A DNA stretch of 64,000 nucleotides from a virus, in IMG/VR virus record IMGVR_UViG_3300024581_003792, positions 127,006-191,005 of that record; one strand, 5' to 3'. Under the pieces are notes generated by a model. The model did no database searches. It was given only the letters and a program-made list of their open reading frames with translations, and had not been told where the DNA came from. The first letter of the stretch is position 1; each line of letters starts with the position of its first letter. This document shows, in pieces, positions 56,054-59,147 of this stretch. The position numbers and the translations under genes were made by a program.

Positions 56054-56734
56054 ATGTGCAAAATATTTAATTTTTTTTCTGAGATTTATTGCATAAATCT
56101 GCGGCGGCGAAAAGATCGCCGGGTACATATGGAATCGTTATTTGAGAAACTGGGTTTAAGTGATCGTGTTATTTGGTTTGATGCCATAGAAACACCCGAG
56201 GATGGGAGAATAGGTTGCAGATTATCTCATTTAAACATTATCAAGTATGCCAAAAAAAATAAAGCAGACAATGTACTAATATTTGAAGATGACATCGCGC
56301 CTACATTAGAATTTGACTTGTATTGTTTGAGTAAAGGTATTGATACATTAAAATCTGTTGATTGGGATATATTGTACTTAGGTGGTCGTGTGATTAGCCC
56401 AGCCTCAGACATAAACGACTTTCTATTCAAGTCATTTTTTTGGTCCGCTGGATCACTTTGCATCAACAACACTGTCTTTGAAAGATGTCTTGAGCTTGAA
56501 AGGTATAGTGGCCCGGTTGACTGGTTTTACTCAAGCCCTGTGCAAGATTTTGACTGTTTCTCTGTTAATCCATGCATGTTTGTACAGCATCCGAAATTTG
56601 TCAGTGACTTGACATCGACAACAACTGACCGACGCGATGCGTTTTTAAAATCATATTCAAACAGACATAATGCCAGTCCTCCAAGCGAAGAATGGACAAA
56701 AAAAGAATTAAAAATGTACCATGATAAGTCATAA
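56054..56734 (+). CDS. GT25-family glycosyltransferase
   Basis: YCINL.RR.DR, IGCRLSH, LIFEDD, WDILYLGG; start may be 56036. Confidence 0.8.
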   Translation: MCKIFNFFSEIYCINLRRRKDRRVHMESLFEKLGLSDRVIWFDAIETPEDGRIGCRLSHLNIIKYAKKNKADNVLIFEDDIAPTLEFDLYCLSKGIDTLKSVDWDILYLGGRVISPASDINDFLFKSFFWSAGSLCINNTVFERCLELERYSGPVDWFYSSPVQDFDCFSVNPCMFVQHPKFVSDLTSTTTDRRDAFLKSYSNRHNASPPSEEWTKKELKMYHDKS

Positions 56735-57284
56735 GAATAAATTAATTTTCATACATTGCCCTAAATGCGGTGGTGAATCTATCGAATATGCGATTTTTGG
56801 TAAAATCGACAAAAATTTTCTTGGTGACCCATATGAAGGTTCACCAGAAAAACACTGGGGATATCAAGATTATGTTGCAAAATATAGTCCTGATACATGT
56901 AAAGAATATTTTGTTTTTACATTTATCAGAAACCCATGGGATCGTGCAATATCTAGAATCATGTATAGAAACAAAAGGCTCAATAGACCAATGGGCATTT
57001 CATTGGAACTGCTAAGAGAGGAGTGTTGTATAAATCGGCCCCTTTGTGAAGATTTGTTTTTTAATGAAACATGTGCTGTAAACTTTATTGGAAGATTCGA
57101 AAACCTCCAACAAGACTTCAACATCGTATGCGACAAAATCGGCATACTTCGAAAACAGCTGCCACACGAAAACAAAACCAAACACAAACACTACACCGAA
57201 TACTACGATGATGAAACTCGTCAAATCGTTGCAGAAAAATACGCGCGAGACATCGAGTATTTTGGTTACAAATTTGGAGGGTAA
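56721..57284 (+). CDS. Sulfotransferase, cassette A (ST5)
   Basis: FIHCPKCGGESIE, IRNPWDRAIS, shared C-terminal tail. Confidence 0.85.
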   Translation: MISHKNKLIFIHCPKCGGESIEYAIFGKIDKNFLGDPYEGSPEKHWGYQDYVAKYSPDTCKEYFVFTFIRNPWDRAISRIMYRNKRLNRPMGISLELLREECCINRPLCEDLFFNETCAVNFIGRFENLQQDFNIVCDKIGILRKQLPHENKTKHKHYTEYYDDETRQIVAEKYARDIEYFGYKFGG

Positions 57285-57287
57285 AAG

Positions 57288-57899
57288 ATGATATTGTCAC
57301 ACAAACATAAATTCATTTTTATAAGAACCGCAAAAACAGGATCAACCTCAATTCTAAACACATTCAATCCTTATCGTTTCGAAGAAATATATATTCCAGG
57401 TAAAAGTAATTCGGTATACATCGAAGGTAAAAAATATGACTCCAATCATCTACCCCTTCCCATTTTTAAAAAACTTTTTTTAGGATATCAATCGGAAGAT
57501 TTGTTTGATGAGTATTTCAAATTCTCATTTGTGAGAAACCCATGGGATAGGATCGTATCAGCATGGAAATACAACATTAAACATGGTTATACTGAAGCCA
57601 ATACAACATTATTGGGCTTTATCAATCATTTAAAATCTGGTGAGTCGATTAATTCTTATAAATATCTAAGTCAGTACGATTTTGTAAATGGCTGTGATTT
57701 TATTGGAAAAGTAGAGAATATGCAAGCAGACTTCGATACGGTCTGTGATAAAATAGGAATCCCACGAAAACAACTTCCACATGTAAATAAAACAAATCAC
57801 AAACACCACACCGAATATTATGATGACGAAACTCGCGAGATTGTTGCAGAAACTTGCGCAAAGGACATCGAGTATTTCGGTTACGAATTTGGAGAATAA
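57288..57899 (+). CDS. Sulfotransferase, cassette B (ST6)
   Basis: FIRTAKTGSTSI, VRNPWDRIVSAW, shared tail. Confidence 0.85.
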   Translation: MILSHKHKFIFIRTAKTGSTSILNTFNPYRFEEIYIPGKSNSVYIEGKKYDSNHLPLPIFKKLFLGYQSEDLFDEYFKFSFVRNPWDRIVSAWKYNIKHGYTEANTTLLGFINHLKSGESINSYKYLSQYDFVNGCDFIGKVENMQADFDTVCDKIGIPRKQLPHVNKTNHKHHTEYYDDETREIVAETCAKDIEYFGYEFGE

Positions 57900-57902
57900 A
57901 AG

Positions 57903-58514
57903 ATGATAATTTCAGATTCCCATAATTTTGTATTTGTTGCAACTACAAAAACTGCCAGTACTTCTATTGAAGAACACTTAAACGCATACAAGTCCGATTA
58001 TAAAGTTACTCATTTATTTGGACCATATGATCGACATTGTCCGTTAAAAATTATTTATGAAAAATTTCCGTTTATTGAAGATTACTTTAAGTTTGCAATA
58101 GTTAGAAACCCGTTCGATTGGCTTGTTTCGTGGTACTTTTATAGAAAATCAAATAGTATTCCAAGAGGAAAAACCAACCCAAATTGCACAGATGATGTAG
58201 AATTTAAAGAATGGTTGATGAACCCTGAATCTACAGCGTACAATGAAAAGGGTGTGGGCTTGACCATGAGTCAACTAGATATAATTCAAGGTAATGAAAA
58301 AATTTCTATGGACTTTGTCGGAAAATATGAAAACCTTCAACAAGACTTCAATATCTTCTGCGACAAAATCGGAATACCGCGCCAACAACTTCCGCACAAA
58401 AACAAAAGCAAACACAAACACTACACCGAATATTACGATGATGAAACTCGTCAAATTGTTGCAGAAACTTGCGCAAAAGACATTGAGTATTTTGGTTATG
58501 AATTTGGAGAATAA
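57903..58514 (+). CDS. Sulfotransferase, cassette C (ST7)
   Basis: FVATTKTASTSIE, VRNPFDWLVSWY, shared tail. Confidence 0.85.
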   Translation: MIISDSHNFVFVATTKTASTSIEEHLNAYKSDYKVTHLFGPYDRHCPLKIIYEKFPFIEDYFKFAIVRNPFDWLVSWYFYRKSNSIPRGKTNPNCTDDVEFKEWLMNPESTAYNEKGVGLTMSQLDIIQGNEKISMDFVGKYENLQQDFNIFCDKIGIPRQQLPHKNKSKHKHYTEYYDDETRQIVAETCAKDIEYFGYEFGE

Positions 58515-58517
58515 AAG

Positions 58518-59147
58518 ATGATAAACCATAATCATCAATTTATTTTTATTCACATTAATAAATGCGGAGGAACCACCATCACTAAAAGCTTATATACAGA
58601 GCCGGGCGAGTTTAGTTTCAGTGGTCACGATGATGCACTTACATACAAGCTAAATTATCCAAATGAGTTTAATTCATATTTTAAATTTACTTCTATAAGA
58701 AACCCGTGGGATAAAGTAGTTTCGTTTTATCATTATCATGTTAAAAGAAAATGGGATTTAAAGTGGGATTGGGATGTGACTAATGCACCTACATTTACAG
58801 AGTTTGTAAGGATCACTTCGTCATATACAAAACAAAAGCAAGAGTTAATTTTCCAAGGAGACCCTTCTCCATGTACATATCATAAAAGGATTACAAGCAA
58901 TCAACTAGATTGGATAACAGACGAAAATGAAAAAATTATGGTTGACTATATAATGAGGCTTGAAAACCTACAAGAAGACCTTGATATCGTTTGCGACAAA
59001 ATTGGAATTCCAAAGCAAAAACTTCCACACAAAAACAAAAGTGAGCATAAACACTACACCGAATACTACGATGAAGAAACAAAGCAAATCGTTGCGGAAA
59101 TATACGCAAAAGATATTGAGTATTTCGGGTATGAATTTGGGGAATAA
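58518..59147 (+). CDS. Sulfotransferase, cassette D (ST8)
   Basis: FIHINKCGGTTI, IRNPWDKVVSFY, shared tail. Confidence 0.85.
   Translation: MINHNHQFIFIHINKCGGTTITKSLYTEPGEFSFSGHDDALTYKLNYPNEFNSYFKFTSIRNPWDKVVSFYHYHVKRKWDLKWDWDVTNAPTFTEFVRITSSYTKQKQELIFQGDPSPCTYHKRITSNQLDWITDENEKIMVDYIMRLENLQEDLDIVCDKIGIPKQKLPHKNKSEHKHYTEYYDEETKQIVAEIYAKDIEYFGYEFGE

What the first reader, a model, noticed from the sequence alone, without database searches (positions are those of the whole stretch)
56721..59147. Sulfotransferase cassette array: variable cores, homogenised 3' ends, identical in-frame junctions
Seen: four tandem genes whose central acceptor-binding regions are barely alignable but whose last ~60 codons are near-identical in DNA. 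Cassette C is mosaic: 57/59 identical to A over 58409-58467, then 65/69 to B over 58456-58524, with differences at synonymous positions. All three junctions are TAA-AAG-ATG-ATA, so all four genes share one reading frame. Inference: the conserved tail plus junction acts as a recombination anchor for gain, loss, reordering and conversion of specificity cassettes, an integron-like outcome without an integrase, diversifying the sulfation pattern. The same logic appears in the beta-helix adhesins (32311-38601), hinting at a coupled receptor-binding/surface-decoration arms race.
Basis: partly seen in the sequence, partly recalled or inferred. Interest (0 to 1): 0.75.

Follow-up and report, generated by a model that had tools for sequence, protein, structure and literature searches.

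The report
Phage sulfotransferase gene array, cassette turnover
A large uncultured marine phage carries four sulfate-adding enzyme genes in a row; their similar ends reflect enzyme function, not copying between neighbours, yet close relatives have gained, lost or swapped whole genes at or next to those ends.

Summary
There are four in-frame tandem Sulfotransfer_2 genes (A-D, 56721-59147) with three identical TAA-AAG-ATG-ATA junctions. C matches A at 57/59 and B at 65/69, and all differences are synonymous.

"Homogenised tails" is not supported:
- The last 64 codons are only 71-84% identical in DNA.
- Homologues in unrelated viral contigs reach the same level.
- A run test for conversion tracts gives p=0.42.
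- Across 165 within-locus and 13,209 between-locus pairs, tail codon identity does not differ.
- The tail motifs also occur in single-copy sulfotransferases of many bacterial phyla, so protein constraint explains the tail.

The "gain, loss, replacement at the tail" inference is supported by relatives:
- A strain with B at 94% lacks A, has a foreign core in place of C, and keeps a 13-nt scar of A's tail.
- Contigs from two studies join B's tail to C's tail and lack C's core.
- Two other phage pairs show a one-cassette indel and a replacement at the tail or junction.

The genome has no integrase and the junctions have no attC-like repeats.

Verdict: a hypervariable sulfated-glycan island that evolves by recombination at functionally conserved gene ends. 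This is a new variant of a known kind, of moderate interest. The scan noted a four-sulfotransferase phage operon before on other DNA (e1-3754552).

The parts
56721..57284 (+). Sulfotransferase A (187 aa). Its start overlaps the upstream GT25 gene by 14 nt.
   Evidence: ORF; PF03567 at 55.5 bits. Absent, together with the second GT25 gene, from the close relative L124.
57288..57899 (+). Sulfotransferase B (203 aa)
   Evidence: Orthologue P0001 is 94% identical in amino acids. L124:4238-4906 matches window 57270-57938 at 94.6% nt.
57903..58514 (+). Sulfotransferase C (203 aa). Its core, about 57939-58290, is the variable piece among relatives.
   Evidence: The core is replaced by unrelated core X in L124. 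It is skipped in contigs of runs X1 and X2, joint 57775->58400.
58518..59147 (+). Sulfotransferase D (209 aa)
   Evidence: Orthologue Y in L124 is 80% identical in amino acids. The AF2 model has pLDDT 85.9 and its Foldseek hits are PAPS-dependent sulfotransferases.
57090..57284 (+). Conserved tail of A (last 64 codons plus stop). The homologous tails are B 57705-57899, C 58320-58514 and D 58953-59147.
   Evidence: Pairwise tail identity is 71-84% nt and 70-81% aa. Foreign tails reach the same level. Longest exact matches between tails are 24-26 nt for three pairs, A-C, A-D and B-C.
57282..57293 (+). Junction A/B, TAA AAG ATG ATA. Identical copies lie at 57897-57908 and 58512-58523.
   Evidence: The format stop + 3 nt + ATGATA is the commonest one (17 of 47 distinct junctions) in other phages' sulfotransferase arrays, with a variable spacer triplet.
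56034..57269 (+). Segment (second GT25 gene plus nearly all of A) that is absent from relative L124, which keeps a 13-nt remnant of A's tail end.
   Evidence: blastn; sequence reading.
56036..56734 (+). Second GT25-family glycosyltransferase, immediately upstream of the array
   Evidence: PF01755 at 45 bits
52519..56029 (+). Upstream island genes: two further Sulfotransfer_2 genes (52519-53223, 53281-54315), GT25 (54328-55119) and GT2 (about 55121-56029)
   Evidence: 90.2% nt identity to L124:1498-4239.
59165..62145 (+). Downstream island genes: an unknown 236-aa protein, a methyltransferase, an RmlD-like reductase, and an inositol-monophosphatase/CysQ-family protein (61345-62145)
42448..43278 (-). 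APS-kinase-like gene, a candidate for PAPS supply
   Evidence: PF01583 at 46.8 bits at G000:169999-170244(-), which is window 42994-43239
5195..6316 (+). RecA/UvsX-like recombinase of the phage
   Evidence: PF00154 at 41.2 bits at G000:132299-132910, which is window 5294-5905

Best explanation
A-D are four old paralogues, with 20-32% core identity. They belong to a very large subfamily of small PAPS-dependent Sulfotransfer_2 enzymes found mostly in marine phages. Each keeps the cofactor-binding elements: an N-terminal K-x-G-[ST] loop, the RNPWD..S motif, and a roughly 64-residue C-terminal module. Each has a different middle part, which is presumably the acceptor site. The tail DNA similarity is what amino-acid constraint on a stretch rich in two-fold codons produces; it is not maintained by conversion inside the array. 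The genes lie in a sulfated-glycan island with glycosyltransferases, a methyltransferase, an RmlD-like reductase, a pyrophosphatase, an APS-kinase-like gene and a CysQ-like phosphatase. They are packed stop + 3 nt + start, probably as one translationally coupled operon. Between otherwise unalignable cassettes, the tail, the junction and the first ~40 nt are the only homologous DNA, with exact matches of up to 24-26 nt. Recombination between cassettes, within a genome or between co-infecting phages, therefore tends to resolve there and yields in-frame loss, gain or replacement of whole cassettes. Shown: family membership, the family-wide tail conservation, the absence of an array-specific conversion signal, and the cassette-level differences among relatives with breakpoints mostly at tails, junctions or gene starts. 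Inferred: that homologous recombination is the mechanism (the phage's RecA-like protein is a candidate), that the variable core sets acceptor specificity, that the target is a host or virion glycan, and translational coupling.
For: Family: PF03567 at 55-70 bits; the AF2 model gives Foldseek hits that are all PAPS-dependent sulfotransferases; 1551 homologues at E<=1e-30. Constraint: foreign tails are 80-84% nt identical to A-D tails, the same as the in-array pairs. Within-locus and between-locus tail same-codon fractions are 0.551 and 0.556, p=0.43. In-array values of 0.53-0.77 lie inside the foreign distribution, mean 0.62. The tail motifs are present in sulfotransferases of cyanobacteria, Flavobacteriaceae, Rubrobacter, Verrucomicrobia and others, mostly as single genes. 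Run test p=0.42. Turnover in relatives: (1) In L124, flanks are 90-95% identical, window 56034-57269 is missing, C's core is replaced by X, and D is 80% identical. (2) Contigs from two studies, about 96% identical, join 57775 to 58400 with 27 in-frame novel nt; a third study has a similar joint. (3) L041 and L071 differ by one cassette, with the crossover in the last 50-100 nt of the tail. (4) In L021 versus L042, colinearity stops at the junction and the next two cassettes are non-orthologous, 43-45% aa. (5) A JGI contig has one more cassette (644 nt) than L133, although both carry the same B'' protein. HSP ends fall in the tail/junction zone 17 times against 5.0 expected. The phage encodes a RecA-like protein.
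Against: One deletion endpoint, the L124 scar, has only about 5 nt of microhomology on its left side, so not all events are homology-driven. The 17 enriched breakpoints reduce to about 4 independent events. All relatives are short-read metagenome assemblies, and repeats can mislead assemblers. The three junctions are identical here but differ in L124 (TAA AAG, TAG GAT, TGA GAG), a small array-specific signal that constraint alone does not explain. The family as a whole shows a modest site-specific excess of synonymous codon sharing in tails, 0.077 against 0.012 in cores, p=0.001. No expression or enzymatic data exist.
Confidence: 0.65

Rival explanations
1. One reading: tail plus junction are actively homogenised by gene conversion and are kept, partly at the nucleotide level, as a recombination anchor. 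This would be a homology-based, integrase-free cassette system.
For: Three identical junctions here against three different ones in the 94%-identical relative. The A-C tails are in the top 2% of same-codon identity although their cores are the least alike. Max-chi2 breakpoint in C, p=0.002 uncorrected. Family-wide site-specific synonymous codon excess in tails but not in conserved core columns.
Against: Run test global p=0.42. Foreign tails match as well as in-array tails. There is no within-locus excess over 165 pairs. The synonymous excess vanishes in the 55 sequences that lack the peptide patterns used to fish the loci. The tail is conserved in single-copy bacterial genes. D shows the same A-then-B trend as C, which points to A's divergent end.
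Confidence: 0.15
2. Cassette differences arise mainly by illegitimate recombination at random sites, and selection keeps only products with intact genes (classical phage mosaicism). Tail homology plays no causal part.
For: The L124 deletion leaves a 13-nt scar with about 5 nt of microhomology. Several relatives diverge exactly after D's stop or before A's and B's starts into unrelated sequence (loose ends at 59148, 57288 and 56721).
Against: The L041/L071 crossover lies inside the tail, with identity switching from partner 1 to partner 2. The B-tail to C-tail joints are in homologous register or nearly so. The cassette indels are unit-sized: about 615 nt in L071 and 644 nt between the JGI contig and L133.
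Confidence: 0.15
3. The apparent variants are assembly artefacts of short-read metagenomes at the repeated tails.
For: All relatives are short-read contigs, and the tails share exact repeats.
Against: The longest exact repeat between tails is 26 nt. I recall, but did not check here, that the Logan contigs are built with k=31; if so, no shared word could bridge two tails. The 57775->58400 joint carries 27 novel in-frame nt, sits in about 96%-identical flanks, and recurs in two studies. The L124 arrangement is 100% identical in eight contigs from separate samples.
Confidence: 0.05

Closest known systems
Carbohydrate sulfotransferases of Pfam Sulfotransfer_2 (PF03567; for example the animal CHST/HNK-1ST and HS2ST group; one source labels homologues 'chondroitin 4-sulfotransferase 11')
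   Same: Domain match over the full profile. The 5'-phosphosulfate loop lysine and the RNPxD..S motif are present. The predicted fold matches PAPS-dependent sulfotransferases.
   Different: Much smaller (187-209 aa), with no membrane anchor. Phage-encoded, in tandem arrays. Only weak sequence matches to solved structures (E>=0.028). Acceptor unknown.
Polymorphic-toxin 'orphan' cassette arrays (Rhs, CdiA-CT), where a conserved coding stretch next to a variable module lets homologous recombination swap modules (recalled from the literature, not tested here)
   Same: Tandem variable modules share a short conserved coding segment, and relatives differ by whole modules with breakpoints in that segment.
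   Different: Here every cassette is a complete, separately translated enzyme gene. The conserved piece is at the 3' end. There are no immunity genes and no displaced promoter-less fragments, apart from one 13-nt scar in a relative.
Integron gene-cassette arrays
   Same: The outcome is similar: same-orientation cassettes whose number and order differ among relatives.
   Different: No IntI-type integrase in the genome. No attC-like inverted repeats at the junctions. No Rfam match. The recombination substrate is coding homology.
Hypervariable glycan loci (O-antigen or capsule clusters; phage-encoded O-antigen modification such as Gtr/Oac; virion glycosylation genes of mycobacteriophages and giant viruses), recalled from the literature
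   Same: A cluster of glycosyltransferases and modifying enzymes that varies between close strains.
   Different: Sulfation rather than glucosylation or acetylation. At least 10 sulfotransferase genes in one phage. The target (host surface or virion) is unknown. A paper on marine OM43 phages states that the function of phage sulfotransferases is unclear (PMC10580990).

Membership tests
Sulfotransfer_2 (PF03567) | Profile match above the curated gathering score | tested here: met
   55.5, 62.0, 70.5 and 65.5 bits against a cut-off of 22. B, C and D cover profile positions 4-252 of 252.
Sulfotransfer_2 (PF03567) | 5'-phosphosulfate-binding loop lysine, and the 3'-phosphate-binding Arg/Ser (RNPxD..S) | tested here: met
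   K15, R70, N71, P72, D74 and S78 are invariant among A-D. K15, R61, N62, P63 and S69 (D numbering) are invariant in 47 homologues. Assigning these residues to PAPS binding rests on general knowledge of the fold.
Sulfotransfer_2 (PF03567) | Sulfotransferase alpha/beta fold | tested here: met
   AF2 pLDDT 85.9 and pTM 0.84. All 50 best Foldseek PDB hits are sulfotransferases, but with modest TM of about 0.5 and only one at E<=1e-3.
Sulfotransfer_2 (PF03567) | PAPS-dependent sulfate transfer to a carbohydrate acceptor | not testable with these tools
   Needs an enzyme assay.
Integron cassette array | IntI tyrosine recombinase adjacent to the array | tested here: not met
   No PF00589 match anywhere in the 213,830-bp genome.
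Integron cassette array | attC imperfect inverted repeat at each cassette boundary | tested here: not met
   No inverted repeat of 14 nt or more within 120 nt in 56600-59300. No Rfam match.
Concerted evolution (gene conversion) of tandem paralogue ends | Same-array copies more alike at synonymous sites than copies from different genomes | tested here: not met
   0.551 against 0.556, p=0.43, over 165 and 13,209 pairs. A-D values lie inside the foreign distribution, with only A-C in the top 2%.
Concerted evolution (gene conversion) of tandem paralogue ends | Significant conversion tracts | tested here: inconclusive
   Sawyer-type run test, global p=0.42. Max-chi2 for C against A and B, p=0.002 uncorrected among 12 triplets, with a parallel trend in D.

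The most novel reading that the evidence does not exclude
The tail, the 3-nt junction and the conserved start form a portable recombination module shared by a pan-oceanic pool of phage sulfotransferase cassettes. In-frame exchange between co-infecting phages would continually reshuffle which sulfation specificities a phage carries. The tail's nucleotide sequence would then be kept more uniform than protein function requires, either as a by-product of that traffic or through selection for it.
Probability: 0.2. Interest if true: 0.75.

Novelty: new variant of a known kind. Interest (0 to 1): 0.5.

Why it matters
Phage sulfotransferases are regularly listed as auxiliary genes, but their role is unknown (PMC10580990). 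This is a 214-kb phage with at least 10 of them, probable PAPS-handling genes, and an array whose cassette content differs between strains that are 90-96% identical in the aligned flanks. That pattern suggests diversifying pressure on a sulfated glycan, on the host surface or on the virion. It also offers natural sets of small enzymes with one cofactor module and many acceptor modules, useful for glycan sulfation chemistry. Finally, it shows that DNA-level similarity of paralogue ends should be compared with the family-wide background before conversion is inferred.

Tried and rejected
- Phage DNA search: blastn of 56000-60000 against cultured and deposited phages found no match.
- Phage protein searches: only distant hits to D (three records, about 31% identity) and to the DnaE-like polymerase, so there is no cultured relative and no host assignment.
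- ATP sulfurylase (PF01747): not found in the genome.
- Exact-protein look-ups of A and C: nothing on record.
- Profile against PDB sequences: only weak hits to HS6ST and HS2ST, E>=0.028.
- Shine-Dalgarno idea: GGAG inside the Phe-Gly-Glu codons lies 8 nt before each ATG. However, only 12 of 46 genes in the window have any SD-like motif, against 13% background. SD-based coupling is therefore plausible but unproven.
- Short-sided joints (57134->58998, 57322->58960, 57550->58960, 57553->58981; 20-42 letters on the shorter side): not used, since they may be foreign tails.
- Parts of the stretch without contig cover: not interpreted.
- Nearest IMG/VR relative (L079/L023): it shares flanking genes at 74-92% aa but has the island rearranged and no four-gene array at that place. 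It is too distant to define events.
- Literature searches for phage sulfotransferase arrays: nothing specific found.
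Full report
**What is there.** The window is bases 127006-191005 of a 213,830-bp IMG/VR virus record that CheckV estimates as 100% complete. It is 36% G+C. It encodes a tail sheath, a DnaE-like polymerase and a DnaB-like helicase. It has no close cultured relative.

At 56721-59147 there are four + strand ORFs:
- A, 56721-57284
- B, 57288-57899
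- C, 57903-58514
- D, 58518-59147

All four are in one frame and are separated three times by TAA AAG followed by ATG ATA. All four match Pfam Sulfotransfer_2 well above threshold. An AlphaFold model of D (pLDDT 85.9) finds only PAPS-dependent sulfotransferases in the PDB.

**Are the 3' ends homogenised?** No.
- The last 64 codons are 71-84% identical in DNA among A-D, while the cores are 20-32% identical in protein.
- I fetched 78 viral loci with homologues and extracted 165 family members. Their tails are as close to A-D as A-D are to each other. The best foreign tails reach 81-84% nt identity and the medians are 72-75%, with cores at about 30% aa.
- At positions with identical amino acids, the fraction of identical codons in A-D tails is 0.53-0.77. 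The expectation if synonymous sites were saturated is about 0.50. Foreign pairs with similar tails have a mean of 0.62. Only the A-C pair is in the top 2%.
- Over all loci, same-locus paralogues are no closer in the tail than genes from different loci: 0.551 against 0.556, p=0.43.
- A Sawyer-type run test on the four tails gives a global p of 0.42.
- A max-chi-square test does give a breakpoint in C between A-like and B-like parts (p=0.002, one of 12 triplets). D shows the same trend, which points to A's own divergent last 15 codons.
- Foreign tails match C's two segments at 55/59 each. The 'mosaic' is therefore barely above family background.

The tail motifs also occur in sulfotransferases of many bacterial phyla, mostly as single genes. 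The tail maps to the end of the Pfam domain, and the model predicts confident helices there. Protein constraint on a stretch rich in two-fold codons explains the DNA similarity.

One caveat applies. The viral loci were found with peptide patterns taken from the tail, so the sample favours conserved tails. The neighbouring, unbaited genes and the bacterial homologues soften this bias but do not remove it.

**The junction.** The format stop + 3 nt + ATGATA is the commonest one in other phages' arrays (17 of 47 distinct junctions). Overlaps of 4 or 1 nt and 2-nt spacers are also frequent, and the spacer triplet varies. GGAG inside the conserved Phe-Gly-Glu codons lies 8 nt before each start. Few genes of this phage have such a motif, however (12 of 46), so translational coupling is an inference. 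The shared reading frame follows simply from the 3-nt spacers.

The identity of all three junctions is the one array-specific signal. In the closest relative the three junctions read TAA AAG, TAG GAT and TGA GAG.

**Is the array variable among relatives?** Yes, and by whole cassettes.

(1) *Relative L124.* The protein search found an orthologue of B at 94% identity. Its contig, L124, is 100% identical in eight contigs from different samples.
- It matches window 53276-56033 at 90.2% and 57270-57938 at 94.6%.
- It lacks 56034-57269, that is, the second GT25 gene and A.
- Directly after the GT2 stop it keeps a 13-nt remnant of A's tail end plus the junction.
- After B' comes X, a 234-aa sulfotransferase whose core is unrelated to C (36-42% aa to any of A-D). 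X shares C's first 36 nt at the 94.6% level and C's tail only at paralogue level (79.5% nt).
- Then comes Y, 80% identical to D, and then a different downstream gene.

(2) *Metagenome contigs.* I laid contigs of four marine runs on 54000-62000. In two studies a contig about 96% identical runs through B to 57775, has 27 novel in-frame letters, and resumes at 58400 in C's tail and on through D. C's core is therefore absent. A third study shows a similar joint at 57764->58387. Several contigs leave the window sequence exactly after D's stop or before the starts of A and B.

(3) *A second B lineage.* A contig carrying an 84% orthologue of B has one more cassette than two otherwise matching contigs. 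The difference is 644 nt, which is a 29-nt spacer plus a 615-nt gene. This rests on the gene table only.

(4) *Other phage pairs.* L041 and L071 differ by exactly one cassette. The single L041 gene follows cassette 1 of L071 at 90-100% and switches to cassette 2 in the last 50 nt, as does the downstream flank. L021 and L042 are colinear at 83-90% up to the junction after their third sulfotransferase. They then carry non-orthologous cassettes (43-45% aa) and a different following gene before homology resumes.

Ends of homology fall within the tail/junction zone 17 times against 5.0 expected. These reduce to about four independent events.

**Mechanism.** Between cassettes, the tail, the junction and the first ~40 nt are the only alignable DNA, with exact matches of up to 24-26 nt. 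The phage encodes a RecA-like protein. Homologous or homeologous recombination there would give in-frame unit-sized changes, as seen. The L124 scar shows that illegitimate events occur as well. The genome has no integrase, and the junctions have no attC-like repeats or known RNA motifs. The resemblance to integrons is therefore one of outcome only.

**Context.** The array lies in an island that contains:
- two further sulfotransferase genes, GT25 and GT2 glycosyltransferases and a methyltransferase;
- an RmlD-like reductase, a CysQ-family phosphatase and a pyrophosphatase;
- an APS-kinase-like gene about 14 kb upstream on the other strand.

The genome holds about ten Sulfotransfer_2 genes. This fits synthesis of a heavily sulfated glycan, but neither the acceptor nor the target (host envelope or virion) is known. 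A paper on marine OM43 phages states that the role of phage sulfotransferases is unclear (PMC10580990).

**An unresolved residue.** Across 128 family members less than 80% identical, conserved tail columns share site-specific synonymous codons more than tail codon usage predicts (excess 0.077). Conserved core columns do not (excess 0.012; p=0.001). In the 55 sequences without the bait motifs the excess is small and not significant. Three explanations remain open: more recent shared ancestry of tails through recombination, nucleotide-level function near the next gene's start, or sampling.

**Verdict.** The sequence features are real. The 'homogenised tails' and 'mosaic C' readings are not supported above background. 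The cassette-turnover reading is supported by relatives. The feature is best described as a hypervariable phage sulfotransferase array that evolves by recombination at functionally conserved gene ends.

Noticed in passing
L124:4225-4258 (relative); corresponds to window 57270-57290: Directly after the GT2 stop codon, the relative keeps a 13-nt remnant of sulfotransferase A's last codons plus the TAA AAG junction in front of B'. It looks like a deletion scar that preserves the region just upstream of B's start.
   Followed up: partly
window 53261-53280: The 20 nt before the 344-aa sulfotransferase gene (start 53281) contain AAATTGGAGAGTA. This resembles the tail end and stop of the array genes, and may be another tail remnant or a shared ribosome-binding region.
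   Followed up: no
window 57090-57284, 57705-57899, 58320-58514, 58953-59147: C-ending two-fold codons (AAC, CAC, TAC, GAC, TTC, ATC) make up 60% of such codons in the four tails against 25% in the cores. Tail GC3 is 0.33-0.47 against 0.24-0.28 in the cores.
   Followed up: partly
family alignment of 128 homologues (tail columns): Site-specific synonymous preferences are shared across unrelated phages. For example, one Glu column is GAG while the other Glu columns are GAA, and one Tyr column is TAT while several others are mostly TAC. Conserved core columns show no such pattern.
   Followed up: partly
window 1-64000: Only 12 of 46 gene starts have a Shine-Dalgarno-like motif, against 13% background. 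This suggests a host with little SD use.
   Followed up: no
window 42448-43278 (-), 49250-49759, 61345-62145: An APS-kinase-like gene, an inorganic pyrophosphatase and a CysQ/inositol-monophosphatase-family gene accompany the sulfotransferases. No ATP sulfurylase domain (PF01747) was found in the genome.
   Followed up: partly
L079 and L023 (IMGVR_UViG_3300037991_007827) against window 11-4827 and 59165-61367: In the nearest IMG/VR relative, homologues of the genes at 59165 and 60519 lie next to a homologue of the gene at 11-778. The two glycan islands that are 55 kb apart here are therefore contiguous there.
   Followed up: no
window 59168 and 61204: Contigs in runs X2 and X3 join 61204 back to 59168 with 17 other letters between. 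This indicates a different gene order downstream of the array in relatives.
   Followed up: no
L005, L004, L045: Other viral contigs carry up to seven sulfotransferase genes within 12 kb, or five in tight tandem.
   Followed up: no
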